Of a stretch of DNA of 64,000 nucleotides, positions 11,594 through 28,597 are shown one piece after another. The position numbers and the translations under genes were made by a program. Under the pieces are notes generated by a model that was not told the DNA's origin, ran no database searches, and was given only the letters and a program-made list of their open reading frames with translations. The stretch covers positions 9,546-73,545 of the forward strand of contig JBHLNF010000014.1 of NCBI GenBank assembly GCA_048937405.1, read 5' to 3'. Numbering within the stretch: position 1 is the stretch's first letter; the number at the start of each line of letters is the position of its first letter. This DNA is from Promethearchaeota archaeon. Lineage in GTDB: Archaea; Asgardarchaeota; Lokiarchaeia; Sigyniarchaeales; SOKP01.

Positions 11594-13084
11594 TTGCACT
11601 TTATAATGAAATCTGTCTTAATTGCAAATCGTGGAGAGATTGCAGTAAGAGTTATTCGGACCTGCCGATCAAAAGATATTCAATCAATAGCAGTATTTTC
11701 CGAGTCAGATAAAGATTCTCTTCATGTAAAAATGGCTGATGAGGCTTATTCATTAGGGAATGAATCGATTCAGAGCACATATTTGAATATTCCTAAATTA
11801 ATTGAAATAATTGAAAGGTCAAAAGTAGATGCTGTCCATCCTGGTTATGGTTTTTTAAGTGAAAATGCCGATTTTGCTCGAGAAGTCATTAATCTTGGTA
11901 GAGATTTTATTGGACCAAATCCAGATACCATTGAATTCTTAGGAAATAAAATAAAAGCAAAAAAACGTGCTAAAAAAATTGGTTTACCCGTTTTGGAAGG
12001 TTCTGAAGAATTTGTTGACAATTTAGACGAAGCCAAATCAGTTGCAGATGAAATAGGATATCCTGTAATAATTAAGGCAGCCTATGGTGGTGGTGGTAGA
12101 GGTATGGAAATTGTTGAATCACATGAAGATATGGAGATTGCATTTGAAAGCTGCCAATCAATGGGATTAAATTTTTTTGGACGGAAAGAAGTATTTATTG
12201 AAAAAACTATTACAGAACCGCGCCACGTAGAGATTCAATTTATGGGAGATAATTTTGGAAATGTTGTTCATTTAGGAGATCGGGAGTGCACAATCCAAAG
12301 ATCATATCAAAAACTAATTGAGGAAGCACCCTCATTTTTAACGAGAGATGAGGTTATTGAATTAGGAGAAAAAACATGTTTATTAGCTTCTGACTTAAAT
12401 TATTCAAATATAGGAACCGCAGAATTTCTCTGGAAAGATGGTAATATTTATTTTAATGAAGTTAATCCAAGGATCCAAGTAGAGCATGTAGTTACAGAAA
12501 TGGTAACTGGAATAGATATTATTGAAGAACAGATAAATATTGCTTCAAATAAACCATTAAATTTCACTCAGGAAGATATTTCAATATATGGTCATGCAAT
12601 AGAATATAGGATTAATGCTGAAGATCCACATAATTCATTTTTCCCTCAACATGGAAAAATATCCAATTTGATAATTCCAGGAGGTCCAAAAGTGCGTTTT
12701 GATAGCTACTTATATCCAAATTATATTGTTCCTTATGATTTTGATCCATTAATAGGAAAATTAGTCGTTTGGGGACGTAATCGTAAAAGAGCTATTAGTA
12801 GTTCTAAGCATGCTCTAAAAGAATTGGTTATCTCAGGAATTAAAACAAACTTGGAAATGCATAAAGTAATAGTGGAAACAAGTGAGTTTAAAAAAGGGGA
12901 TTTATCAACGGATTTCCTAAATAAAATAAATATTGTTTATAACTTGAAAGACTTAGAGAGAAAGAAATTAGCCGCCGTTTTTCAATTATTCAACACGTTT
13001 GATTTTGCACCCCAACCTGAAAAGGATAATGATAAAAACTCACATAAATGGCGAGATATTGCTAAAATTGAGCAAATGGGTTAA
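11594..13084 (+). CDS. accC: Biotin carboxylase subunit of an acyl-CoA carboxylase (likely start ATG 11606)
   Basis: VLIANRGEIA, HPGYGFLSEN, GGGGRG, RECTIQR, EVNPRIQVEH, RINAEDP. Confidence 0.95.
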   Translation: MHFIMKSVLIANRGEIAVRVIRTCRSKDIQSIAVFSESDKDSLHVKMADEAYSLGNESIQSTYLNIPKLIEIIERSKVDAVHPGYGFLSENADFAREVINLGRDFIGPNPDTIEFLGNKIKAKKRAKKIGLPVLEGSEEFVDNLDEAKSVADEIGYPVIIKAAYGGGGRGMEIVESHEDMEIAFESCQSMGLNFFGRKEVFIEKTITEPRHVEIQFMGDNFGNVVHLGDRECTIQRSYQKLIEEAPSFLTRDEVIELGEKTCLLASDLNYSNIGTAEFLWKDGNIYFNEVNPRIQVEHVVTEMVTGIDIIEEQINIASNKPLNFTQEDISIYGHAIEYRINAEDPHNSFFPQHGKISNLIIPGGPKVRFDSYLYPNYIVPYDFDPLIGKLVVWGRNRKRAISSSKHALKELVISGIKTNLEMHKVIVETSEFKKGDLSTDFLNKINIVYNLKDLERKKLAAVFQLFNTFDFAPQPEKDNDKNSHKWRDIAKIEQMG

Positions 13085-13124: not shown

Positions 13125-13640
13125 TTATAAAACAGAAGTACTTTCTGTTATTTTTACTGAAGGTATATTCTCAATTTTAACTAGCTGTTGATCTTGACCT
13201 ACTATATCCTCAACTTCTACGAAGATTTGGGTTATCTTGCCGTTAATTGGAGATAATATCCGATTTTTCATTTTCATTGCCTCTAAGATCATAATTAATT
13301 GATCTTTTTCAACAATTTCCTGTTCTTTAATAAGAATTTGCAGAATCTTCCCGGGAATAGGTGCTTTTATAATCACATCTTTAGTCTCCTGATTTTGATT
13401 GTTATTTTCTACTGGCTTTAAGTAGGGTTTAATTTCAATATCGATTTCTTCTCCTTCTAAATATAAAGTTCCATTTATATATTCCAAATTGAATTGACAA
13501 TCTGCAAATGACACTCGAAACAAATTTTCAGTTTCCTGAACTACTACAGGTGTATAAATGTGATCATCAACTTTTATTTTCCCATCATCCAAGGGTTTAA
13601 CAATGTAAGTTCTACCCCGGAATTTTACTTTTTTTTTCAT
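13125..13640 (-). CDS. accB: Biotin carboxyl carrier protein
   Basis: APIPG...LEAMKM biotinylation motif in a C-terminal biotinyl domain. Confidence 0.93.
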   Translation of the reverse strand: MKKKVKFRGRTYIVKPLDDGKIKVDDHIYTPVVVQETENLFRVSFADCQFNLEYINGTLYLEGEEIDIEIKPYLKPVENNNQNQETKDVIIKAPIPGKILQILIKEQEIVEKDQLIMILEAMKMKNRILSPINGKITQIFVEVEDIVGQDQQLVKIENIPSVKITESTSVL

Positions 13641-13670: not shown

Positions 13671-14456
13671 TTATAATAGATGAGTACTAAAAAATTCAAG
13701 AAGCTTTTCACGCATCAATTGAAAATGATTTTTATTTGTAAAATTATGATTAGCACCATCAATAATGTCAATACTCTTGATATTAGAATTAATTTTATTG
13801 AAAAGCTGATGAAATCCAAATTCTGGGAATAAAACATCCTTATTCCCCGCTATTAAGTAGAATGGTTTTACTAATTTATCCGCTAATCTGTCTGGATTAT
13901 ATTGTCTTGTTTGTCCTGCATACATATTCTTAATATCTCCTTCTGGAAATCGCATTTCCTTATTACGTGTTAAAGCTTTTATAAAAAATTTAAATAATGG
14001 ATTTTTAGGGACAATTTCAGTATCGAAAACAGGAGATCTTATAGCAAGACATTGGACTCTTCTATCTCTTACAGCATGACAAAAAGCCATTGCACCCCCA
14101 AAACTCTCTCCCAATAATCCAATTTTGAGAGGATTAATTTTAGGATGGTAAATTAAGAGGTCTATTACTCGTTCAATATTAGCGTGAGCATCATGATATG
14201 TAAAAATACCCGTACTATTTCTAACACCTTGATGATCATAAGAAAAAAAAGCAATATTTCTATCAATGAAATGATGTGCAAATCTTATTTCGTTTTCTTC
14301 TGGAGACTTTCCTGGCATACCACTGATATTTATTATTATTGGATAAGATTGATTTTCATCCGATTTAGGATTACTACCATCAGGTAAATAAAGAATACCA
14401 TGTAGAATTTCGGAACGGATTTCTATTTCTTTTATTTCTTTTATCATTCTTATCAC
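13671..14456 (-). CDS. Alpha/beta hydrolase, probable chain-releasing thioesterase
   Basis: GESFGG nucleophile elbow, GNKD acid, GANH His; the GTG start overlaps the megasynthase stop (GTGA), alternative ATG at 14447. The thioesterase role is inferred from context. Confidence 0.8.
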   Translation of the reverse strand: MIRMIKEIKEIEIRSEILHGILYLPDGSNPKSDENQSYPIIINISGMPGKSPEENEIRFAHHFIDRNIAFFSYDHQGVRNSTGIFTYHDAHANIERVIDLLIYHPKINPLKIGLLGESFGGAMAFCHAVRDRRVQCLAIRSPVFDTEIVPKNPLFKFFIKALTRNKEMRFPEGDIKNMYAGQTRQYNPDRLADKLVKPFYLIAGNKDVLFPEFGFHQLFNKINSNIKSIDIIDGANHNFTNKNHFQLMREKLLEFFSTHLL

Positions 14457-17400
14457 GTGATTATATTATTTTCTTTAAAATTTTTAATCTCACAATAAGA
14501 TAATACATATTTCTCATTGAATTCAACACTTAATTGTAGATCTTCAAGTATTTCATTGAATTTGGATAAGCTTTTTGTGAGTTTCACTTTAAAATTCTGA
14601 TGAATTTTATTATATTTTAATTCAATGTCTCTGAAATTTATATGAGTACCTTCACCAATTGCTTTTGAGAATGCTTCTTTTGCAGTCCAATATATCGTTC
14701 CTAATTGATCATCTTCTGAAATATCTTCTCTTTCCGATTCAGTAAATGCTTCCATATAGAAAGATTGAGATCGAGATTCAATTTTCTCTAAATCAATTCC
14801 AACTAAATTTTTACTAATAATTGCAATAGAAAATTCATTTGAATGAGTAATGGAAAGAAAAAGTGGAATTATTTGGTTATTCTTTAATGAATAGTAATAT
14901 GGTCTCCCTTTTTCATCTTTCTGTATTTCAATGTCCAGATAGGAAATATCAATTGGTGAATTTTTAAAATAAGATTCTTTTGCTGCTATGATTCCAGAAA
15001 AATATTCAATCTTTCTTTTTTGATTCCTAAATCGCACAGAATTGTCAAACTCTCTTTCAGTAAGGTATTTGTCTAAAAATTGAGGATAATTTTGAAATGA
15101 TTTTTTTATCATTTCGATAGGAATTATTTTTACCTCATGTTTTTGAGTTTTTTCTTTAAGTTTACAATATTCTAACAGTGTAGATAAATAATTGGAAAGA
15201 TTGTTGGAGAGATTAACTGAAATCTGTGTATGAATAATTTCTAAATTTTCTATTATTAAAATAACTTCTTGGTTTTCACTCAAAATTACTGAATTAAAAT
15301 AGGAACGTTCTTCATCAATTTTCAGAAATTCTGTTACAATATATTTTGGTTTTTGGTTTGATATTATTTTCATGGAAGAAATTTTAGAAGGAAGGGAGAG
15401 ATGATTATTAATGATAAAATCAAACAGTGCAGCTGTTTGGAATACACTCTCAATTGCTAATGGATTAAGCTGAAACATATCTCCCTCAATGTTATTAGTA
15501 AGAGGTTCTTTTGGTAGATCAATCTTTGAGATAATTTGCTCTTTTTCTAATTGAATTATTTCTTTTAGTACTTGGAATTTCTTACCGTGAAAAAATAGTT
15601 CATAAATCTGAGTTTTATCAAGCAGAGGTATTATTGGTTCTAAAATCAGTTCTTTTTTCCAATTCATCTCAATTAATGATTTATCGAATAGAGCACTGAA
15701 ATGTTCTTTTATAAGAGGTTTTCCTTTCAAAATAGGAGGAAAAGTCTTCGATAAAAATTTTATTTCGTTATCAGATTTATTAAAGATTACTTCTACACTA
15801 ATTGATTTATCTATTGGAATCTTCAAGGGCGTATGAAAACTAATATTTGAAATTGAATTCATAGGTTTATCAAAGATTCGATTATAGAATTCTGCAAATG
15901 TTTCTAAAACCATTACACCTGGAAAAACGGGTTTTTGCTGAATTTGATGGTCAAGAAGATAAGTATCGAATTTAGAATTTATGGTATTCAAACCAATAAT
16001 GTGGTCAGCCTGATAATTTATTTTTTCTATCATAGGATATTCTAATTTATTGACTACTTCCCCGACATCAAGCATTTCCTCAAAGAATCCTAAGTTTCCA
16101 GCAATGATATATTCACCTGTAAAATTGTTTAATACTAATTTAGAAAAAATCTTAGTACCCGTTTTAGAGGGAATAGGAGTAACCCCCGCTTGAGTAAGGA
16201 CTTGAAGTGTAGAACCTCTAGTAGCCATTCCAATTTCGCCCCATGCTGTCCAATCAAAAGTTAAAAATTGAATGTTTTGTTGGTTGAATTTCCAAGCCAA
16301 TCTTGACAGATAAGCATTCGCAAATGCATAATCTATCTGACCTTGATTACCATAACGTCCAGCAACTGAAGCAAAAGCAATAAAATATTTTACATCTTGT
16401 AGTTTTATATACTTAATTATGTTTGAAAATCCTCCGACTTTAACACTAACAATTTTGTGAGCCATATTTAAATTTTTCTTCAAGAAGCTTTTTGATTCTT
16501 CAATACCAGCACCATGAACTATAATTGTTATTGGTTTTTTTGTTTGTTTTTTAATTTTTTGAAAGATAATCTTCATTTCTTCTTCATTTGTTATATCAAC
16601 CGCATAATATTGAACTGAAAGCCCTTTATTTTTTAAATTTTCGACATTTCGAAGTGTATCCAACTTATCGAGAAATTTCTTCCATTCTTTATTGATTATG
16701 ACAGGAGTTACTTTATCTTGTTTAGATTTCAATGATTTAACGAATTCTTGTTTTTTCTCATCTAACATATCCGATGAATAGTTAAGATATTCATAAAATG
16801 AATCATCAAAAGGAGCTAAACCTAAAAGTATTAATTCTGGCTTAATATGATTTGTTAATTCATCAATACACGCAAATGTGATTCCTTGCGCTCCTCCTGT
16901 AACCAATAATACATCATCTTTGGTTATTGTTACTTGGTTTAGTTCGGGAAGATCTTCTATCTTCTTTCTCAGCAAAGTATAACGAGCATTATCTTTATAT
17001 GCAATTTCCTCAAGTTTATCCCATCCCAAGAATTCTTGTGTAATTTGTTTAATATTCATTGAAGCTATAATCTTAATAGGAATCTGAAACTCTCGATTAA
17101 TAGTTTTTATAAACGCACCGATACTAGATGAGAGAGGATTAGCACCTTGTTCCCAACCAAACATATTCTCAGGAGAAAGGACCAAAATTTTCTCAATAAT
17201 TGATATATTTAAAGATTTAAAAATAAGAAATAGAATGTCAAAGATGTCTAAACTATCATCAATAGAATACTGGCCATTATCTGGGGATATTAATATAATT
17301 ATCTTGAAATCCTTATTAGATATGACATCAGGAACTTTATTTCTAAACTCCTCAACGCTTTTTTTATCTCCATTAGCATTGTAAATATGGATGTCCATCC

Positions 17401-20400
17401 CAAAATTTTTGAAATCTTCAATTAGATTTTTATGATTGGATAGTCCTGAATTAATATTAATTACTAATGTTTTAATATTATCAAATTTCGGCGTTTTCTC
17501 CGAAGAAACTAATTTAAAAACTCGAGTTGGGACTACTTGTGAAATACCAATTGAATCAACTTCTTCTGACTTCTCTTTAGATTTAGAGATACCACTTGAG
17601 GTTGTTAAGGATATTTCAGGCACTTTTAATTCTTCACCTATAAATCTCATTATAAATTCAATAATTGCATTAGGTGTGCGTATATCAGCCAAATTAACCT
17701 CAATGTTATCCTCTAGATTGTAATGATTCCTTAATTCTCCAAATATTTCCGCTTGTTTTACAGTATCAATCCCAAGATCTTCTTCTAAATCATATTCATC
17801 ATCAATATCTTGAATATCATAACCTGTTTTGTCCGCAATAATCCTCTTTACTAAATTTTTGACCTGATTTATCTCATCATTTATATTTTGTTGTGATTGT
17901 ATCATATCTGGTATTACACTTACATCTGGTTCTATGTTTTGATCAATTACATACTCTTGTATTTTTTGAATTATATTATTGATAGTTCCTAATCCTACTA
18001 AATTTATTTCTGTGTCCTGCGAGATATTCAATTGATTTCGTAATTCTCCAAAAATTTCAGCTTGCTTAACTGTATCAATACCTAAATCTTCTTCTAGATC
18101 AAAATCAACATCAATATCTTCAATATCATATCCAGTTTTTTCAGAAATGATTTGAATTAATTTAGTTTCAAGAGTTTTACTCTCAATACGGGTAATTTCT
18201 TTGCTGGATGATATATCTAATCCCAAATATTCGTTTAGCATCAAAACAATAGAATTGATGGTACGATAATCTGCTATATTAAATGTATCATCAACTTCAA
18301 TTCCCCATTTTTCTCTAATTTCCCCAAATATTTCTGCTTGTTTTACAGTATCAATTCCTAGATCTTCTTCTAAATCATAAGTTTCTTCAATGTCTGACGG
18401 ATCATAACCTGTTTTTTGTGCGATAATATGCTTAATTTCATCTAAGATATTACTTGAGTAAATCGAGGTTGCCTTTTGGGAAAATTCTGTTGCTTTTGGT
18501 GATATTAAAGTTGTTTTTCTAGTAGAGATAGGTTCTACATTCATTTTTAATATTCGACCATCCATGAATGTCAGTTTCCTACTTCCCCCTACACTTTGAA
18601 GCCATTTATCATAATTTGGATTTATAAACCGATTTTCAAATGAGAATAAGCGAAATAATACAAATGCTAATTGAGAACCAAATCCAGCAGCAAAACGTAA
18701 TGCATATTTCTTTCTTTCTCTTAACCCTTTTGAAAAATTAAATTTTATAAAATCGGGATCAATTTTTTCAATATTTGCAATTGGAGGAATTTTTCCTTTT
18801 TCCATTGATTTAATAGCCACTGCTTCCTCGATACCAGCTCCCATTGCATGACCAGTATATCCTTTAGTGTTAATTATAAGCATATCATAAGCATTTTCAC
18901 CAAATGCTTTTTCCAATGCTAATAATTCCGATTCAGCACTTCCACCTCGAGCAGGGGAATAAGTCTCATGACTTACAAACATACCTTCTTTTGCTAAAAC
19001 ACTTCTGTTAATGCCGTGAATCTTTTCCATTTTTATTATAAAATTGTTGAATTTTTGAGAAATATCATCTTTATCTAATCGACTACCATGATATGCACTA
19101 TTACTAAAGAAAGATCCAAGAATTTCTACAATTGGTTTAACTCCCCGATTTTCAGCTTCAGATTGTTGTTCAAGAACAAATGCACTAGCCCCAGCACCTA
19201 AAATAATCCCATTTCTTCCTTTCCCGAATGGGAGTACTGCATCTTCCCAGTTAGATTGCGTTGTACCGGCACCATTTGCTATAAAACCTGCTCCAATCCA
19301 TTGAAATAGATTTTTACTTGTTACATCATCAGCTGTAATTACAATAACTCGTTTACATCTATTATTTCGTATCCAATCTTCTGCTATACTAATCGCTTGG
19401 GGTGCAGTAGCGCAAGCAGCATTAGTAGCCGTATTGGGACCTTTTGCTTTAATTAATTGAGCAAATTGGGAATGACCCATTGATAATACTCTAAATAAAA
19501 ATGAACGATTAAATGTGTTATCCCCATCTTCAGGATTATTTAATTGATTCTGATCTTTATTAGAATGTAATAAGCATTCCTCAGCAAAATTATCATATCC
19601 TGGAAAAGCCGAAGCAAAAATAACTCCAGTATCATCCTGTAAAGACTCTGGTAAAGTCCAATCACCAAATAATGTCTTTCCTGTAGTTGTTTTAATAGTA
19701 CTACGGATTAATGGAATTCCAGCATCTTTAAGTGCTTCATAGCCAGCACATATTGCTAATTGAAATGTAATATCCAATGCATTAAGCATCTTAGGATCGA
19801 GTTGATAATCTTCTGTAGGATTAAATTTTCCTAATTCTCCTGCTAAATGGATTACTTTAGAAATATCATCTATAGGTACAAATTTTGCATTACCATCAGC
19901 TGATTTTTCTAAACGGATTATATTCTTTTTTAATAAATCTAATTTATATTCTTCGCTTACCATTTCTATGAAATTTTTTCCATCTAAAATATCATCGATG
20001 TTCTTATCATCAAAAACATTACGATTTTTACCAGGAAGTCCAATACCTACTCCAGTGATTACTACTGGAGAAGACTTTTGCATTAATTCATATTTGCCAA
20101 ACTGGTTTTCAAGAGAAGATTGATATTTTTTTAAATAATTATGAAATCCCTGAATTATTACTGAAGATAATAGTTCCTTTTGTTCCTCTAAAAACTCATT
20201 AAAAAATGGAAGTTGCTTTATCTGAAGTAATTCTTCATTCGAAATTAAATTATCATCCATTGTTGATGAAGTTGTGACCTTTTTCACAATATCTTGTTTC
20301 TGATTTCTTACTGATGGAGATGAAATTTTAATTTCCTTAGCACTCTTCATTGTTCTTGGCGACTTATACTTCTTAAAAATTTTTAGAAGATGTTCTTCTT

Positions 20401-23400
20401 CTAAAGATTTCGGAGAAAGGGTGAAATCAATTTCAATATCCTTGTAATTTTTTAAAATGTCCTTTGCAAAAAAGAATAGAGCCTTTTTTGGACCTATTTC
20501 TAAGAACTTTCTTCCTCCTAATTGATAGATATTTATAATTTCATCTACCCATCTAACAGGTGAAGTAATTTGTTTAAGTAAAATAGACTGAATCTCACGA
20601 GGATCATTAAGATATATCTTTCCAGTTACATTACTAAATACTGGTATTATAGGAGATTTAAATTCTATTGATTTTAAAAAATCCTTCAACTTTTCTTCAG
20701 CATGAGCTACATATTTAGAGTGAAATGCATTTGAAACATTTAATTTCATGGCTCTTATTTCTTTTTCTGAGAAAGCCTTAACTACTTCCCCAACTGCAGA
20801 TAATTCTCCCGATATAACTGTTTGAGATGTAGAGTTATAGTTAGAAATTGACACATTTTTTATAGAAGTTTTATTTAATATTTTCTCAACTATTCCAGGT
20901 GATGTAAAGATCGCCGCCATAGAACATTCAACACCTGGAGGTAACTCAGACATTGCTTTTCCTCTGTTAATTACAATTTTTAGTGCATCCTCAAAATTTA
21001 ATACCCCTGCTGTAACTAAAGCAGAAAATTCACCTAAACTATGTCCACCAACAATTCCAGGAACAATACCCTTAGTTTTAAAGAGTCTTACTAAAGCAAT
21101 CTCAATTGAATAGATTGCTGGTTGAGTATACTCAGTTTGTCTTAATCTATTCGAGTTTTCTTCCTGCGATAAATTTGGTGATCCAAAAATCACTTCCAAT
21201 AAATTAAATCCTCCAAAATTCTTACATATTTCGTTTGCATTGTCAAGTGTGTCTTTAACAACTTGAAATTTTTCATATAGTTCTCTTCCCATCCCTACAT
21301 ATTGACTTCCTTGACCACTAAACAGAAAACATATATCAGATGATTGAGAGCTTTTTGAAAGATCAAGCGGTGATTTAAGATGATCATGTATAGGAGATTG
21401 AATCTTGGATTGAATATGGGCTTGCGATGTATATTCTTCGAGGATAATATGATAATTCGTCCCACCAAATCCAAATGAGGAAACACCAGCCCTTCTAACC
21501 CCCGATGAAGGAACTAACCACTCTTTTGGTTCTGTATTTACATAATATGTACTAGTACTCCAATCTATTGCTGGATTTAAAGTTGAGATATTTATTGATG
21601 GTGGAATAATTTTATTATGTAATGCTAAAACAGTCTTAATTATAGCAGCAATTCCGGCAGCACTTTTAAGATGACCAATTTGACTTTTTACTGACCCGAT
21701 TGCAAGTTTCTGATTGAGATCTCTCTCAGAAAACACTTTATTTAATACTTCCAATTCAGCAACATCTCCAACTGCCGTTGATGTTCCATGACATTCAAGA
21801 TATTGAAGGTCTGATTGATTTAAATTACTATTTTCCAATGCTCGCTGAATAGCTAATTTTTGTCCGTCAGGATTAGGTGCAGTTATCCCCTTTCCTTTTC
21901 CATCTGAAGAAGCTCCACATCCGGAGATAATTGCATAAATTTTATTTTTATCTTGAATTGCATCTTCAAGACGCTTTAAAACAATAAATCCCGCTCCTTC
22001 ACCAATAACAAATCCATTGGCACGAGCATCAAATGGATAAGATCCATCTTCAGATAATGCCCCAATCTTACAGAATTTGATGTACGTTTGAGGATCAACT
22101 GAACTATCAACACCACCAGCAAGAACTATATCATAGTCTTTTAGAAGTAAACCTTTAACTGCAGTATCAACTGCGGCCAGACTTGAGGCACACGCAGCAT
22201 CAGTTGTCATATTTTTGCCAGTTAAATTAAATACATTTGCTACTCTACCTGCTATTATGTTTGATAATTCTCCTGGCATTGTATCTTCGTTGATCACAGG
22301 AATTTGACTAATAATTTTTTCTTCAAGAAAATCTAGAAGTTTTTCTTTTTCTTCTTGATTTAGAATCATCTGAGAACTTGCCTCATTGATTCGATATTTC
22401 ACTTCATTAAAGTGAATACGTTTAGTAGTAAGACGTTGATTATCTCCCCCTAAAGAATTACCGACGATAACAGCTATAGGTAAGCGTTGTTTCCCATCAG
22501 TAGGATAACCTGCGTCAATGAGTGCCTCTTCAGCTGTAATGATTGCCCATTTTTGAACAAAATCCATTCTCTCTGCTATCTTTGGAGGAATACGATATTT
22601 TATGGATTTGAACTCAAAATTTTTTACAAATCCACCAATTTTTGTATAAGTTTTATCGATGGAAGAAGGATCTTTATCATAATAGATATCAGGATCCCAT
22701 CTATCTTTTGGAACTTCTGTTATTGAATATTTTTTATTGATAATATTATCCCAATATTGTTGAATATTCTCAGCATCTGGAAAAAGACCTCCTAAACCAA
22801 CAACGGCAATCTTATTTTCATTTGACATTTTCTTTTGTTCCTCTTTATCAAAATCTAGAGATTTTTTTTCTGAAGTTAAACATAATACTTGACTAGAAGT
22901 CTTTCTAATAAATTTAGATCCACCTTCGATTATATCATAATGTATTTGGGGGATCGTTCTAATCGATTTTTGAAAAGAAATAGAATCGCCAGTCATAAAA
23001 GCACCTTTAGTTAATTGATCTTCAGTAGAAATTGGAATAAATTGAGATGTGCCTTTTCCCTCTTCATGATTATCATTCCAAATCTCCGCCCTAGAAGCGA
23101 TTCTAAGTGCTCCTAAATTTTCTTTCTCATATAACTCTTTTCTTTGGGAAATAGAAATTCCCTGTGCTTTTCTTGATAATTCTCGTTCAATAGTTTGATG
23201 CGAAAATTCATTAGGAATAACTCTTGCTCTAGTATTTACAGTGGTGCCAATTACATGTGTGGATGAACTATTTAGTAATATTTCTTGATATTTTGGTGAT
23301 AAAGCCTTAGTTGAAACAATTTCTTCGCTTAAGAGATAAGCAGTTCCCATTTGAATACCCGGGTTAATAAGATCCAAATGATTCCCAATCATACCTGCTA

Positions 23401-24991
23401 CCATTGCAGAACTTACTTCATTAATAATTCCACCTGCGAACACAATATTTACTTTTTCTGTAAAATTCTTTTCATTCGCATCTATATATTCTAATATAGA
23501 TTCCCAAAGAATAAGGGAGGACAATATCCCAAAATGACCTCCACATTCACTACCTTCTAATATCACATAATCAAGCTTTTTTTTAATAGCCTCTTTAAAC
23601 ATGGTAAGTACAGGTGTGTGAATTAATATGATATTACCTGAATTTTTAATTTGAACACCAAGATCAATAGTTCCCGCTGCAATTAATGTGATTTTAGGAC
23701 CAAATTTCGAAATACACCTAAGATGCTCATCTCTACGCGTTTTTACAACATCTAAGCCTATGATTCCACATCCATATGGCTTTTCTGATAAAAAGTATTC
23801 ATTTGATGCTGATAAGAGTTTACTTGTTTCATCTGATAATAATCCCCCGAGAGCTAATATTGGAAGTGCTCCATTATCTGCAATTTTTTTAGCAAAATCT
23901 AATTTATCAGAGACATTCGCCATTGGACCTTGAATAATAGGATATATAATCCCTAATTTTTTAGCAAATTCAGAATTTATAGCAAAAGGCCAGTGTTCTA
24001 CACTATTTTTAATTTGATTTTTAATTATTTTAATTAAATTGTTAAGAAAATTTTCTAAGTTATGAAATTTATTTAAAATATAGTTAGCAAAACAGATTCC
24101 ATGATCACTTGATAATAAGGAGTGCTTTGGATCAGCATCAGATGGTATCTGTAAATTATCTAAAATTTTTGTAATTTCTTGAAAAAATCGATATTTAAGG
24201 GTTTGATAATCATTATTAAAGTCCTTATCTAATTTCATAAAATCTTTTTGTTCAAGTTCTTTTATTAATCGGATTGACTTATTTGCTAATTTCCCAATTA
24301 AACGATAATTATATATCGAAGTTTCCTGAATAAGATAAAAATCATTTACATCAATAGTTTTAATGTAATTCTTATATTCTTGACTTAAAGGGGATTCTGG
24401 TAGTAAGTATAACTGACTTTCTAACACAACCCCTATAGCACCACCAATGAAGGCTGTACATATAGTATAAACTCCAAATCCTCCTTGAATTATGAATGAA
24501 AGTCCTGCTTTTTGGAATTCTTGAATAAGGATGAAACTATTTTTTCTACCAACTATACCACCTGCTTCATTTCCTTTTACAAGAAATAAATCTGACCATT
24601 CTGCTTTTTCATAAGCTTCTTCTAAGTATGATACTTCAGAAAGAAGCAATTTTGAATTTTTTTGCATTAATTCAATCTCTTTAAAATTTGGAGAGAAAGC
24701 ACAAATAATAATTGGGATTACTTCTCGGAATTCTAGAGCGTTTAAGATTTCGGGAGTAGAAATTCGAATACCCCATTCATAATCGGAAGATAAGGATGAG
24801 GTCATTTTATTAACAAGGACTTGACATTGATTTAAATCAAGTCCATCCAAATCAACTAACCCAACTCCACCAACTCGACTTACTTGAACAGAAAGTAAAG
24901 GATCAGTCATCCCTTTAGGTGAAAAGCCCCAAATAGGGATAGTATTTTTCAAAATTTGTTGGATGTTCTCTTTCTTTATCATAAAAATCAA
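14453..24991 (-). CDS. Iterative type I FAS/PKS (Pfa-like) megasynthase: psiER-ER-KS-AT-KS-ACPx3-KR-DH-PPTase (likely start ATG 24982)
   Basis: Uninterrupted 3512-aa ORF with motifs PIIQGPM/ECGGH, DAACASS/HGTST/IGH, GQGSQ/GHSLG/AFHS, NAACAT/HET/TGH, 3 x LGIDTVKQAE, TGGAQGI/QIDYAFAN, HQIQQKPVFPG, GIDLE/WTAKEA. Confidence 0.95.
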   Translation of the reverse strand: MIFMIKKENIQQILKNTIPIWGFSPKGMTDPLLSVQVSRVGGVGLVDLDGLDLNQCQVLVNKMTSSLSSDYEWGIRISTPEILNALEFREVIPIIICAFSPNFKEIELMQKNSKLLLSEVSYLEEAYEKAEWSDLFLVKGNEAGGIVGRKNSFILIQEFQKAGLSFIIQGGFGVYTICTAFIGGAIGVVLESQLYLLPESPLSQEYKNYIKTIDVNDFYLIQETSIYNYRLIGKLANKSIRLIKELEQKDFMKLDKDFNNDYQTLKYRFFQEITKILDNLQIPSDADPKHSLLSSDHGICFANYILNKFHNLENFLNNLIKIIKNQIKNSVEHWPFAINSEFAKKLGIIYPIIQGPMANVSDKLDFAKKIADNGALPILALGGLLSDETSKLLSASNEYFLSEKPYGCGIIGLDVVKTRRDEHLRCISKFGPKITLIAAGTIDLGVQIKNSGNIILIHTPVLTMFKEAIKKKLDYVILEGSECGGHFGILSSLILWESILEYIDANEKNFTEKVNIVFAGGIINEVSSAMVAGMIGNHLDLINPGIQMGTAYLLSEEIVSTKALSPKYQEILLNSSSTHVIGTTVNTRARVIPNEFSHQTIERELSRKAQGISISQRKELYEKENLGALRIASRAEIWNDNHEEGKGTSQFIPISTEDQLTKGAFMTGDSISFQKSIRTIPQIHYDIIEGGSKFIRKTSSQVLCLTSEKKSLDFDKEEQKKMSNENKIAVVGLGGLFPDAENIQQYWDNIINKKYSITEVPKDRWDPDIYYDKDPSSIDKTYTKIGGFVKNFEFKSIKYRIPPKIAERMDFVQKWAIITAEEALIDAGYPTDGKQRLPIAVIVGNSLGGDNQRLTTKRIHFNEVKYRINEASSQMILNQEEKEKLLDFLEEKIISQIPVINEDTMPGELSNIIAGRVANVFNLTGKNMTTDAACASSLAAVDTAVKGLLLKDYDIVLAGGVDSSVDPQTYIKFCKIGALSEDGSYPFDARANGFVIGEGAGFIVLKRLEDAIQDKNKIYAIISGCGASSDGKGKGITAPNPDGQKLAIQRALENSNLNQSDLQYLECHGTSTAVGDVAELEVLNKVFSERDLNQKLAIGSVKSQIGHLKSAAGIAAIIKTVLALHNKIIPPSINISTLNPAIDWSTSTYYVNTEPKEWLVPSSGVRRAGVSSFGFGGTNYHIILEEYTSQAHIQSKIQSPIHDHLKSPLDLSKSSQSSDICFLFSGQGSQYVGMGRELYEKFQVVKDTLDNANEICKNFGGFNLLEVIFGSPNLSQEENSNRLRQTEYTQPAIYSIEIALVRLFKTKGIVPGIVGGHSLGEFSALVTAGVLNFEDALKIVINRGKAMSELPPGVECSMAAIFTSPGIVEKILNKTSIKNVSISNYNSTSQTVISGELSAVGEVVKAFSEKEIRAMKLNVSNAFHSKYVAHAEEKLKDFLKSIEFKSPIIPVFSNVTGKIYLNDPREIQSILLKQITSPVRWVDEIINIYQLGGRKFLEIGPKKALFFFAKDILKNYKDIEIDFTLSPKSLEEEHLLKIFKKYKSPRTMKSAKEIKISSPSVRNQKQDIVKKVTTSSTMDDNLISNEELLQIKQLPFFNEFLEEQKELLSSVIIQGFHNYLKKYQSSLENQFGKYELMQKSSPVVITGVGIGLPGKNRNVFDDKNIDDILDGKNFIEMVSEEYKLDLLKKNIIRLEKSADGNAKFVPIDDISKVIHLAGELGKFNPTEDYQLDPKMLNALDITFQLAICAGYEALKDAGIPLIRSTIKTTTGKTLFGDWTLPESLQDDTGVIFASAFPGYDNFAEECLLHSNKDQNQLNNPEDGDNTFNRSFLFRVLSMGHSQFAQLIKAKGPNTATNAACATAPQAISIAEDWIRNNRCKRVIVITADDVTSKNLFQWIGAGFIANGAGTTQSNWEDAVLPFGKGRNGIILGAGASAFVLEQQSEAENRGVKPIVEILGSFFSNSAYHGSRLDKDDISQKFNNFIIKMEKIHGINRSVLAKEGMFVSHETYSPARGGSAESELLALEKAFGENAYDMLIINTKGYTGHAMGAGIEEAVAIKSMEKGKIPPIANIEKIDPDFIKFNFSKGLRERKKYALRFAAGFGSQLAFVLFRLFSFENRFINPNYDKWLQSVGGSRKLTFMDGRILKMNVEPISTRKTTLISPKATEFSQKATSIYSSNILDEIKHIIAQKTGYDPSDIEETYDLEEDLGIDTVKQAEIFGEIREKWGIEVDDTFNIADYRTINSIVLMLNEYLGLDISSSKEITRIESKTLETKLIQIISEKTGYDIEDIDVDFDLEEDLGIDTVKQAEIFGELRNQLNISQDTEINLVGLGTINNIIQKIQEYVIDQNIEPDVSVIPDMIQSQQNINDEINQVKNLVKRIIADKTGYDIQDIDDEYDLEEDLGIDTVKQAEIFGELRNHYNLEDNIEVNLADIRTPNAIIEFIMRFIGEELKVPEISLTTSSGISKSKEKSEEVDSIGISQVVPTRVFKLVSSEKTPKFDNIKTLVININSGLSNHKNLIEDFKNFGMDIHIYNANGDKKSVEEFRNKVPDVISNKDFKIIILISPDNGQYSIDDSLDIFDILFLIFKSLNISIIEKILVLSPENMFGWEQGANPLSSSIGAFIKTINREFQIPIKIIASMNIKQITQEFLGWDKLEEIAYKDNARYTLLRKKIEDLPELNQVTITKDDVLLVTGGAQGITFACIDELTNHIKPELILLGLAPFDDSFYEYLNYSSDMLDEKKQEFVKSLKSKQDKVTPVIINKEWKKFLDKLDTLRNVENLKNKGLSVQYYAVDITNEEEMKIIFQKIKKQTKKPITIIVHGAGIEESKSFLKKNLNMAHKIVSVKVGGFSNIIKYIKLQDVKYFIAFASVAGRYGNQGQIDYAFANAYLSRLAWKFNQQNIQFLTFDWTAWGEIGMATRGSTLQVLTQAGVTPIPSKTGTKIFSKLVLNNFTGEYIIAGNLGFFEEMLDVGEVVNKLEYPMIEKINYQADHIIGLNTINSKFDTYLLDHQIQQKPVFPGVMVLETFAEFYNRIFDKPMNSISNISFHTPLKIPIDKSISVEVIFNKSDNEIKFLSKTFPPILKGKPLIKEHFSALFDKSLIEMNWKKELILEPIIPLLDKTQIYELFFHGKKFQVLKEIIQLEKEQIISKIDLPKEPLTNNIEGDMFQLNPLAIESVFQTAALFDFIINNHLSLPSKISSMKIISNQKPKYIVTEFLKIDEERSYFNSVILSENQEVILIIENLEIIHTQISVNLSNNLSNYLSTLLEYCKLKEKTQKHEVKIIPIEMIKKSFQNYPQFLDKYLTEREFDNSVRFRNQKRKIEYFSGIIAAKESYFKNSPIDISYLDIEIQKDEKGRPYYYSLKNNQIIPLFLSITHSNEFSIAIISKNLVGIDLEKIESRSQSFYMEAFTESEREDISEDDQLGTIYWTAKEAFSKAIGEGTHINFRDIELKYNKIHQNFKVKLTKSLSKFNEILEDLQLSVEFNEKYVLSYCEIKNFKENNIIT
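14480..15080 (-). other. Megasynthase domain: Sfp-type 4'-phosphopantetheinyl transferase
   Basis: KGRP, LSITHS, VGIDLE, FTESE, WTAKEAFSKAIG. Confidence 0.88.
15220..16040 (-). other. Megasynthase domain: PKS-type double-hotdog dehydratase
   Basis: LLDHQIQQKPVFPG (Hx8P), FFHGKKFQ, PLAIESVFQ (ExxxQ in place of DxxxQ). Confidence 0.8.
16060..17480 (-). other. Megasynthase domain: ketoreductase with structural subdomain
   Basis: LVTGGAQGIT, VHGAG, FASVAGRYGNQGQIDYAFAN. Confidence 0.9.
17635..18450 (-). repeat. Megasynthase domains: three tandem ACP-like repeats with Thr at the attachment site
   Basis: KTGYD...DLEEDLGIDTVKQAEIFGE three times; Thr codons at 18347-18349 (ACT), 18071-18073 (ACA), 17762-17764 (ACT). 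Confidence 0.9.
18650..20070 (-). other. Megasynthase domain: ketosynthase 2 (divergent, triad retained)
   Basis: VVITGVGIGLPG; NAACAT (Cys codon 19412-19414); SHETY; NTKGYTGHAMG; AGFGSQ. Confidence 0.85.
20400..21340 (-). other. Megasynthase domain: acyltransferase, malonyl-CoA-type signature
   Basis: FSGQGSQ, GHSLG (21032-21046), conserved Arg (NRG), NAFHS (20717-20731), EIGP. Confidence 0.9.
21430..22813 (-). other. Megasynthase domain: ketosynthase 1
   Basis: IAVVGLGGLFP; DAACASSL (Cys codon 22190-22192); HGTST; KSQIGH; GFGGTN. Confidence 0.95.
22900..23950 (-). other. Megasynthase domain: FMN-dependent FabK/PfaD-type enoyl reductase
   Basis: PIIQGPM (23921-23941), ECGGH (23534-23548), FAGGI, MGTAYL. 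Confidence 0.85.
24380..24940 (-). other. Megasynthase domain: degenerate FabK/PfaD-like enoyl-reductase barrel
   Basis: KGNEAGGIVG (His of EAGGH absent, ~24551-24568), IIQGG, GVVLESQL. Confidence 0.65.
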
Positions 24992-27254: not shown

Positions 27255-28013
27255 ATGCTTTCAAAAATTAAAATTATACATATTAATAAAACCAGCTCTA
27301 CCCAAGATGCAATACTTGAGTACTTTCGAAATGATTATCACCCCTCAATATTGCTGATTGCAAAAACCCAAACTAAAGGGCGTGGAAGACAAGAAAATGA
27401 CTGGTTCTCACCAGAAGGTGGATTCTGGGGTACTTTAGGAATATCTAATTCATCATTATTAGAAAAATGGCAATTAGCTTTATTTCATTATTTTACAGCA
27501 ACCTTGCTTGTAAGGGTAATTAAAGAAGAATATAAAATATTATTACAAATTAAATGGCCTAATGATATCTTATTTGAAAATAAAAAATTAGCAGGTATTT
27601 TAATAGATTATGTTGTTAGCGCTCAAAAAAATTATGTCCTAATTGGAATTGGCTTGAATTTAAACAATTCAAGGACCACCATGCCAGAAGATTTAGAACC
27701 GATAACAATATCAATCAAAGATATATTGCATAAACCTGTATCTTTAGATAATTTTGCCCATAAGATTTGTAATTATGCTAATGAGTATTATTCTCCAATC
27801 ATAGAAAATGATGACGAACAAATTAATTATTTAATCGAAGAATATAATCGATACTCACGAATTTATGGAAAAGAAGTTATTCTTGATGATTCAAAGAAAT
27901 ACTACTGTTTTGGAATCAATAAAGAAGGATTAATGCAATTTTCAAATGAAAAAACTAAATTAAATTTATCAATTGATGATTTAACAAGGATAAAAAAGAT
28001 ACTATCCATATAA
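27255..28013 (+). CDS. birA: Biotin-protein ligase without N-terminal HTH
   Basis: STQ, QTKGRGR, WFSP, IKWPND, KLAGIL, IGIGLN. Confidence 0.92.
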   Translation: MLSKIKIIHINKTSSTQDAILEYFRNDYHPSILLIAKTQTKGRGRQENDWFSPEGGFWGTLGISNSSLLEKWQLALFHYFTATLLVRVIKEEYKILLQIKWPNDILFENKKLAGILIDYVVSAQKNYVLIGIGLNLNNSRTTMPEDLEPITISIKDILHKPVSLDNFAHKICNYANEYYSPIIENDDEQINYLIEEYNRYSRIYGKEVILDDSKKYYCFGINKEGLMQFSNEKTKLNLSIDDLTRIKKILSI

Positions 28014-28114: not shown

Positions 28115-28597
28115 ATGCTAATGAAGAATTTTAAAATACCTTATAATCTCAAACCAACTAATCCAATTGAAGAATTTGTTGAAGTAAAAGAAAGTGAAAT
28201 TCATGGATTAGGATTGTTTGCCAAGATGAATATTCCAAAAGGAACAATTTGGTGGCATGCTCGTCCACAAGATGTACTAATTATAACAAAACATCAATTT
28301 TTAGTTCTTGATTCATCTCAGAAATCTAAAACATTGAACGATTTTTTACATCACTTATTGACCTATTCTTATTATGATAAATATCTTGATTCTTTAATAT
28401 TATGTCTAGATAATTCAAGATTCGTAAACCATTCTTTTAATGCTAATTCTGGGGCATCTGAGAATGAAAATGGATTTTATGCCGTTGCGATAAAAGATAT
28501 TCCACCAGGGAAGGAAATTACAGAGGACTATACTAAATATTCTTTATGTGATTGGCTAAAAAAGTATAAGGAATATTTTGATCCTTGTTGTTGGTAA
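28115..28597 (+). CDS. SET-domain protein (putative lysine methyltransferase)
   Basis: SEIHGLGLFA, RFVNHS, DIPPGKEITEDY, Cys-rich tail (C...PCCW). Confidence 0.85.
   Translation: MLMKNFKIPYNLKPTNPIEEFVEVKESEIHGLGLFAKMNIPKGTIWWHARPQDVLIITKHQFLVLDSSQKSKTLNDFLHHLLTYSYYDKYLDSLILCLDNSRFVNHSFNANSGASENENGFYAVAIKDIPPGKEITEDYTKYSLCDWLKKYKEYFDPCCW

What the first reader, a model, noticed from the sequence alone, without database searches (positions are those of the whole stretch)
17635..18450. All three ACP domains have threonine instead of the phosphopantetheine serine
Seen: each repeat reads DLEEDLGIDTVKQAEI, matching the Pfa-type ACP motif LGIDS(I/V)K but with Thr. The codons are ACT, ACA and ACT, and the repeats have otherwise diverged, so Thr is maintained rather than a sequencing error. 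I see no Ser-type ACP elsewhere in the protein or window. Known: carrier proteins are primed on a conserved Ser. Inference: since the KS, AT, KR, DH and ER motifs look intact and the chain carries its own PPTase, the simplest reading is O-phosphopantetheinyl-threonine installed by the dedicated cis PPTase, an orthogonal carrier chemistry. Alternatively, these are non-acylated scaffolds and the enzyme uses CoA esters or a trans ACP.
Basis: partly seen in the sequence, partly recalled or inferred. Interest (0 to 1): 0.88.

Follow-up and report, generated by a model that had tools for sequence, protein, structure and literature searches.

The report
Threonine-type acyl carrier domains
All three carrier domains of a giant fatty-acid-type synthase in an Asgard archaeon have threonine where studied carrier proteins have the serine that holds the phosphopantetheine arm, and since this genome has no other carrier and its only arm-attaching enzyme is fused to the same protein, the arm is probably attached to threonine, a linkage I could not find described.

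Summary
Confirmed. A 3512-aa synthase (ER-ER-KS-AT-KS-ACP3-KR-DH-PPTase) of a Promethearchaeota (Asgard) genome has Thr2215, Thr2307 and Thr2410 at the phosphopantetheine-serine position. The domain folds as a normal ACP with Thr first in helix II, and contigs of other runs show no difference at these codons. These are the only carrier domains, and the fused PPTase the only PPTase, in a 100%-complete genome. Thr is the family rule: 760 Thr, 17 Ser, 1 Pro in 778 intact motifs from 189 proteins across archaea and bacteria. Whole arrays return to Ser independently, none to Ala. In 41 of 42 genomes a family PPTase lies within about 10 kb. All catalytic residues are conserved. The architecture matches the uncharacterised 'Type R' lipid synthases (Shulse & Allen 2011). 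E. coli S36T ACP is reportedly not modified, and I found no paper on Thr-linked phosphopantetheine. Best reading: natural O-phosphopantetheinyl-threonine (about 0.73), inferred, not shown. 'Orthogonal' is unsupported: the PPTases of Ser-array members sit in the same group with no Thr-specific residue. This scan has reported the same trait on other DNA several times.

The parts
18236..18454 (-). ACP1 (about aa 2180-2252); Thr2215 at 18347-18349, codon ACT
   Evidence: AF2 model and Foldseek
17960..18178 (-). ACP2 (about aa 2272-2344); Thr2307 at 18071-18073, codon ACA
17648..17869 (-). ACP3 (about aa 2375-2448); Thr2410 at 17762-17764, codon ACT
14453..24991 (-). 3512-aa iterative FAS/PKS: ER1-ER2-KS1-AT-KS2-ACP3-KR-DH-PPTase (database copy starts at the ATG three codons later, 3509 aa)
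22907..24949 (-). two FabK/NMO-like enoyl-reductase domains; ER2 keeps His486 (51/51), ER1 has a variable residue there
21416..22828 (-). KS1, Cys934/His1068/His1107, each 151/151 in the family
20417..21334 (-). AT, Ser1318/Arg1343/His1424 each 164/164; malonyl-type xAFH motif
18656..20074 (-). KS2, FabF-like, Cys1860 180/180, His2008 180/180, His2048 179/180
16217..16924 (-). KR, Lys2851/Ser2875/Tyr2888/Asn2892 conserved
15287..16099 (-). PKS-type DH, His3015 155/155, acidic Glu3181
14477..15154 (-). fused Sfp-type (tandem AcpS-fold) PPTase; His3383, Asp3400, Glu3402, Trp3435, Lys3438, Glu3439, Lys3443; the only PPTase in the genome
25004..26575 (-). acyl-CoA carboxyltransferase, 12 bp upstream of the synthase
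13671..14456 (-). alpha/beta hydrolase overlapping the synthase stop; candidate thioesterase (inferred)
   Evidence: same position in Ca. Harpocratesius
13125..13640 (-). biotin carboxyl carrier protein
11594..13084 (+). biotin carboxylase
27255..28013 (+). biotin protein ligase (BirA)

Best explanation
The protein is a self-priming, fully reducing, iterative fatty-acid/polyketide synthase fed with malonyl-CoA by the neighbouring carboxylase. Its C-terminal PPTase transfers 4'-phosphopantetheine from CoA to the Thr hydroxyl at the start of helix II of each ACP, making an O-phosphopantetheinyl-threonine phosphodiester. The thiol arm then shuttles chains among AT, two KS, KR, DH and ER as in other tandem-ACP synthases, and the adjacent hydrolase probably releases the product. 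Shown: Thr occupies the Ser position in a normal ACP fold; it is family-wide; all catalytic residues are conserved; no other carrier or PPTase is in the genome; a PPTase travels with the family. Inferred: the covalent link to Thr, the product (some acyl chain) and the hydrolase's role.
For: Only 3 PP-binding matches and one PPTase region in a 100%-complete genome, all in this ORF; HMMs built from Asgard and bacterial stand-alone ACPs find nothing else, so the PPTase has no other known substrate. PPTase catalytic residues are nearly invariant in 92 fused copies (His 92, Asp 92, Glu 90, Glu 90, Lys 90) and align with Sfp H90/D107/E109/E151/K155. The site holds a hydroxyl residue in 777 of 778 intact motifs: 760 Thr, 17 Ser; 180 proteins all-Thr, 6 mixed, 2 all-Ser; no other column has conserved Ser or Cys (highest Ser 29%). 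In 79 loci found with patterns that exclude the site, 282 of 282 readable sites are Thr. All four Thr codons are used. All-Ser and mixed arrays arise at three separate places inside the Thr clade, so Thr and Ser are interchangeable at a working site. The best family PPTase lies within about 10.5 kb of the Thr-ACPs in 41 of 42 genomes with coordinates; the exception is at a contig end. In this genus all 9 genomes with Thr-ACPs have the high-scoring PPTase and the other 45 do not. ACC genes flank the synthase in Asgard, Chloroflexi and other hosts. From my own knowledge, phosphoester transfer to Thr has precedent (ApbE flavinylation, Fic AMPylation, Ser/Thr kinases).
Against: No biochemical data. 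E. coli ACP S36T is described as not modifiable by 4'-PP and does not complement acpP (PMC3340395); from memory, spinach ACP S38T is also unmodified (Jaworski 1989). No paper in the library reports Ppant on Thr. I found no PPTase residue that separates Thr-array from Ser-array members. The genome is a 29-contig MAG, so a missing gene cannot be fully excluded. No product is known for any family member.
Confidence: 0.73

Rival explanations
1. The Thr domains stay apo and act as scaffolds or spacers; the catalytic domains work directly on CoA thioesters.
For: Thr blocks modification in E. coli ACP. ACP-independent, CoA-based fatty acid synthesis has been proposed for archaea (own knowledge).
Against: It leaves the invariant, fused or adjacent PPTase without a job. 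The AT, whose role is CoA-to-ACP transfer, is fully conserved. A scaffold would not restrict the site to Thr/Ser; the few degenerate end-repeats in the same proteins drift to Lys, Ala, Asn, Glu, Gly. All-Ser arrays occur in the same architecture.
Confidence: 0.09
2. Thr is modified, but not with a standard Ppant arm (another CoA-derived group, or a direct O-acyl-Thr ester).
For: The motif around the Thr is more conserved than usual, including Gln at +3 (763 of 778) where PfaA has Arg, and the PPTase has family signatures (Arg3407, Phe3411, Thr3432).
Against: The PPTase keeps the whole Sfp CoA/Mg site. Both KS keep Cys-His-His, which needs thioester substrates (established KS chemistry). Ser-array members share the same signatures.
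Confidence: 0.08
3. A separate Ser-type ACP serves the synthase in trans and is the PPTase's true substrate.
For: Some Asgard genomes do encode stand-alone Ser ACPs, and bacterial hosts normally have AcpP.
Against: None in this genome by Pfam or four custom HMMs. Same-genus genomes with the synthase (G204, G209, G212, G213, G214, G226) show matches only in the long frame where listed. The stand-alone ACP-like ORFs of Heimdallarchaeaceae have no Ser at all.
Confidence: 0.04
4. The modification sits on another residue of the ACP domain and the motif Thr is structural.
For: Two other Thr columns are conserved (-21: 752 of 778; +29: 713 of 778).
Against: Both are also present in Ser-type PfaA ACPs (alignment), and neither is at the helix II N-terminus that PPTases recognise.
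Confidence: 0.03
5. Sequencing error, local decay or a pseudogene.
For: None beyond the rarity of the substitution in textbooks.
Against: Intact 3512-aa frame, two different codons, agreement of other runs, hundreds of homologues.
Confidence: 0.01

Closest known systems
'Type R' secondary-lipid (Pfa-like) synthase cluster, Shulse & Allen 2011 (PMC3098273)
   Same: KS-MAT-second KS-ACP(3-6)-KR core with a linked PPTase and often ACC genes; same host phyla (Acidobacteria, Elusimicrobia, Chloroflexi).
   Different: Here ER, DH and PPTase are fused into one chain and the host is an archaeon. The domain they called a chain-length factor keeps Cys-His-His. The paper has no occurrence of 'threonine' or 'serine' and gives no product.
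Tandem ACP domains of PfaA, bacterial PUFA synthase (TIGR02813), with PPTase PfaE
   Same: Tandem ACPs with the LGID-x-x-K motif after KS-AT; nearest Ser-type outgroup in the tree.
   Different: PfaA has Ser and Arg at +3; here Thr and Gln. Score 923 is under the 1010 cut-off. No FabA-type DH/isomerase was detected.
Sfp-type 4'-phosphopantetheinyl transferases (B. subtilis Sfp, 1QR0/4MRT)
   Same: Tandem AcpS fold, catalytic and Mg/CoA residues conserved.
   Different: Characterised acceptors are Ser; family signatures Arg3407 (Sfp Ile114), Phe3411 (Ile118), Thr3432 (Tyr144); fused in cis.
Fungal FAS alpha subunit with C-terminal PPTase
   Same: Self-priming megasynthase logic; profile matches its PPTase domain.
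   Different: Different domain order, Ser ACP, single AcpS-type module.
E. coli ACP S36T (PMC3340395)
   Same: The same Ser-to-Thr swap.
   Different: An engineered, non-functional mutant; here the Thr is natural and conserved.

Membership tests
Acyl carrier protein (PF00550) | four-helix ACP fold and profile match | tested here: met
   Pfam over cut-off x3; AF2 pLDDT 92.6, Foldseek TM 0.79-0.87 to ACPs
Acyl carrier protein (PF00550) | Ser at the start of helix II | tested here: not met
   Thr in all three
Acyl carrier protein (PF00550) | carries 4'-phosphopantetheine and acyl thioesters | not testable with these tools
   needs MS
Type R secondary-lipid synthase | KS-MAT-second KS-ACP(3-6)-KR order | tested here: met
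Type R secondary-lipid synthase | PPTase downstream | tested here: met
   fused here; adjacent in 41 of 42 genomes
Type R secondary-lipid synthase | second KS is an inactive chain-length factor (as labelled in 2011) | tested here: not met
   Cys-His-His conserved in 179-180 of 180; probably a labelling issue in the original description
Type R secondary-lipid synthase | groups with the five named reference genomes | tested here: inconclusive
   the named strains were not retrieved; same-family relatives (Korobacteraceae, Bryobacteraceae, Elusimicrobia, Oscillochloris) carry the Thr-type synthase
PfaA (TIGR02813) | score above curated cut-off | tested here: not met
   923 versus 1010.1 bits
PfaA (TIGR02813) | Ser-type ACP motif with Arg at +3 | tested here: not met
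Sfp-type PPTase | two AcpS-like halves; His, Asp-x-Glu and Trp-x-x-Lys-Glu motifs | tested here: met
Sfp-type PPTase | transfers Ppant from CoA to a carrier | not testable with these tools
   needs assay
   linked PPTases cluster (4 changes versus 18.9 shuffled; branch 86/97) but 3 unlinked ones fall inside and Ser-array PPTases nest among them

The most novel reading that the evidence does not exclude
A dedicated PPTase lineage installs phosphopantetheine on threonine, which housekeeping AcpS/Sfp enzymes cannot prime, so a large bacterial and archaeal family of lipid megasynthases runs on an insulated Thr-linked carrier; in Asgard archaea this may be their ACP-dependent route to fatty acyl chains.
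Probability: 0.4. Interest if true: 0.88.

Novelty: new variant of a known kind. Interest (0 to 1): 0.76.

Why it matters
The attachment serine is treated as invariant in fatty acid, polyketide and peptide synthesis, and Ser-to-Thr is used as an inactivating control in E. coli. A natural Thr-linked arm would revise that rule, would mean that Thr carriers should not be scored as dead by annotation, and could supply a PPTase-carrier pair for selective labelling or pathway insulation. It is cheap to test: one small domain, one enzyme, one mass measurement. It also points to an uncharacterised lipid synthase present in 60 of 399 Asgard genomes and many bacterial phyla, relevant to whether Asgard archaea make fatty acyl chains.

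Tried and rejected
Ten literature searches: none found Thr-phosphopantetheinylation, the motif, or a characterised Type R product; two 'threonine' hits concerned other residues. Most subscription journals are not in the library; two papers I tried to read by id were not held. A first regex missed the ADLG variants and was replaced by an HMM. Several sites were mis-numbered and redone. Search for a PPTase residue specific to Thr arrays: none found. No RNA holder was listed for the gene, which says nothing on expression. The complex-prediction job was not used: PPTase-ACP is a textbook pair and a pass would not address Thr chemistry. The five named Type R strains were not retrieved. In the PPTase tree six rows labelled 'linked' had no listed ACP coordinates, and the profile was built from family PPTases, so the grouping is partly built in. 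The KS-AT tree is FastTree only, with about 100 rows (near-duplicates and fragments lacking KS1 or AT left out), rooted on a PfaA-type protein.

Full report
Observation. The stretch lies inside a 3512-aa ORF at 14453-24991 on the minus strand. Pfam and NCBIfam give two FabK/NMO-like domains, KS, AT, a second KS, three PP-binding domains, KR, a PKS-type DH and a C-terminal PPTase. Each ACP reads LGIDTVKQAE, with Thr2215 (ACT), Thr2307 (ACA) and Thr2410 (ACT). The repeats are 53-57% identical, with many synonymous differences. The Thr aligns with the Ppant serine of solved ACPs. An AlphaFold model of ACP1 (pLDDT 92.6) begins helix II at this residue, and its best structural matches are all ACPs. 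Contigs from another sample and a second study agree at the codons they cover.

Host and locus. The closest loci are from Promethearchaeota and Hodarchaeota MAGs, so the host is an Asgard archaeon. The genome is rated 100% complete with 5.7% contamination. A carboxyltransferase, an alpha/beta hydrolase, BCCP, biotin carboxylase and biotin ligase surround the synthase, and the same set flanks it in Ca. Harpocratesius. ACC genes also accompany bacterial copies. This is a complete malonyl-CoA supply next to a synthase with a malonyl-type AT.

No alternative carrier. Whole-genome searches find exactly three PP-binding matches and one PPTase region, all in this ORF. Some other Asgard genomes have stand-alone ACPs, so I built profiles from them and searched all six frames of this genome; nothing else was found. 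The fused PPTase therefore has no known substrate except the Thr domains.

Family. Sixty of 399 Asgard genomes carry it. Among 189 proteins with the family's second KS, 778 intact motifs hold 760 Thr, 17 Ser and 1 Pro; 180 proteins are all-Thr, 6 mixed, 2 all-Ser; no other column has a conserved Ser or Cys. In an independent set of 79 loci found with patterns that exclude the site, all 282 readable sites are Thr. All four Thr codons are used. Thr and Ser are one base apart, so this is selection and not inertia. In a KS-AT tree rooted on PfaA-type proteins, all-Ser (P0150, P0245) and Ser-Thr-Ser (P0042) arrays appear at three separate places inside the Thr clade. No array turns to Ala, while the few degenerate end-repeats drift freely. 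The site behaves like a position that needs a hydroxyl.

The machine is intact. KS1 Cys-His-His is 151/151. AT Ser-Arg-His is 164/164, KS2 Cys-His-His 179-180/180, the KR tetrad about 159/160, DH His 155/155. The PPTase's His, Asp, Glu, Lys and Glu are 90-92 of 92 and line up with Sfp's H90, D107, E109, K150, E151 and K155.

PPTase linkage. In 50 genomes with Thr-ACPs, every one has a match to the family PPTase profile; in 41 of the 42 with listed coordinates the best match lies within about 10.5 kb of the array, including hosts that have other AcpS and Sfp genes, and one genome with two arrays has a PPTase beside each. In three Poseidoniales genomes it is the only match. Linked PPTases cluster in a tree (4 label changes versus 18.9 shuffled) but three unlinked ones fall among them, and those fused to Ser arrays nest inside with the same signatures. 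A dedicated PPTase is supported; a Thr-specific one is not shown.

Mechanism. Most likely the cis PPTase attaches Ppant to the Thr hydroxyl and the synthase runs ordinary thioester chemistry with two active KS domains to make a reduced acyl chain (0.73). The covalent link, the product and the release step are inferences. The main argument against is that E. coli S36T ACP is reported as unmodifiable and non-functional (PMC3340395); that concerns E. coli enzymes and an E. coli carrier context. Rivals are apo scaffolds with CoA esters (0.09), a different adduct on Thr (0.08), a trans Ser-ACP (0.04), another attachment residue (0.03) and artefact (0.01). Why Thr is kept is unknown; insulation from housekeeping PPTases or hydrolases is speculation.

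Comparison and novelty. The architecture matches the 'Type R' cluster of Shulse and Allen (PMC3098273), which has no known product and whose description does not mention the Thr. A PUFA-like PKS in Heimdallarchaeota was noted in 2020 (PMC7472256). It works like a PfaA-type tandem-ACP synthase but fails PfaA membership. I found no report of Thr-linked Ppant, within a library that lacks most subscription journals. Earlier reports of this scan reached the same reading on other genomes; they are not independent support, and I had found the Type R paper and the S36T paper before seeing those notes name them. Verdict: a real, family-wide, apparently undescribed variant of a known modification, directly testable; interest 0.76.

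Noticed in passing
window 18656-20074 (-): The second KS, labelled a chain-length factor in the 2011 Type R description, keeps Cys-His-His in 179-180 of 180 family members and has an invariant HET motif, so the synthase probably has two active condensing domains.
   Followed up: partly
window 22907-24949 (-): Two tandem FabK-like domains; the first lacks the His that is invariant in the second and may be a structural pseudo-ER partner.
   Followed up: partly
L161-L165 (for example L161:2485-2745:-): Heimdallarchaeaceae genomes encode a stand-alone ACP-like protein of about 80 aa with Lys or Glu at the attachment site, so it cannot carry Ppant; role unknown.
   Followed up: no
L167-L172, L174-L177, L179, L180: Other Asgard genomes encode stand-alone Ser ACPs with a W-D/N/T-S motif, several near a different PPTase; absent from this genome.
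   Followed up: partly
G412:C1:491546-498141 (Ca. Heimdallarchaeum aukensis; L147, L184, L238): Array is Ser-Thr-Ser, and a second family-type PPTase gene lies about 2 kb after the fused one; a natural test case for Ser versus Thr priming.
   Followed up: no
L245:10001-22736 (Myxococcota, P0184): Thr-type ACPs also occur in a different, two-gene Pfa-like architecture with an adjacent PPTase, outside the Type R clade in the tree; Thr may predate the family or have arisen twice.
   Followed up: partly
G000:C13:326922-328088 and G000:C4:8712-10631: The genome encodes a double-domain PlsC-like acyltransferase and two PlsY-like matches, possible consumers of acyl chains; no link to the synthase was tested.
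   Followed up: no
window 28115-28597 (+): A 160-aa SET-domain protein lies just after the biotin ligase.
   Followed up: no
genus-level survey: The cluster is patchy in this genus (9 of 54 genomes) but near-universal in some Heimdall-type families (27 of 31, 10 of 12).
   Followed up: partly
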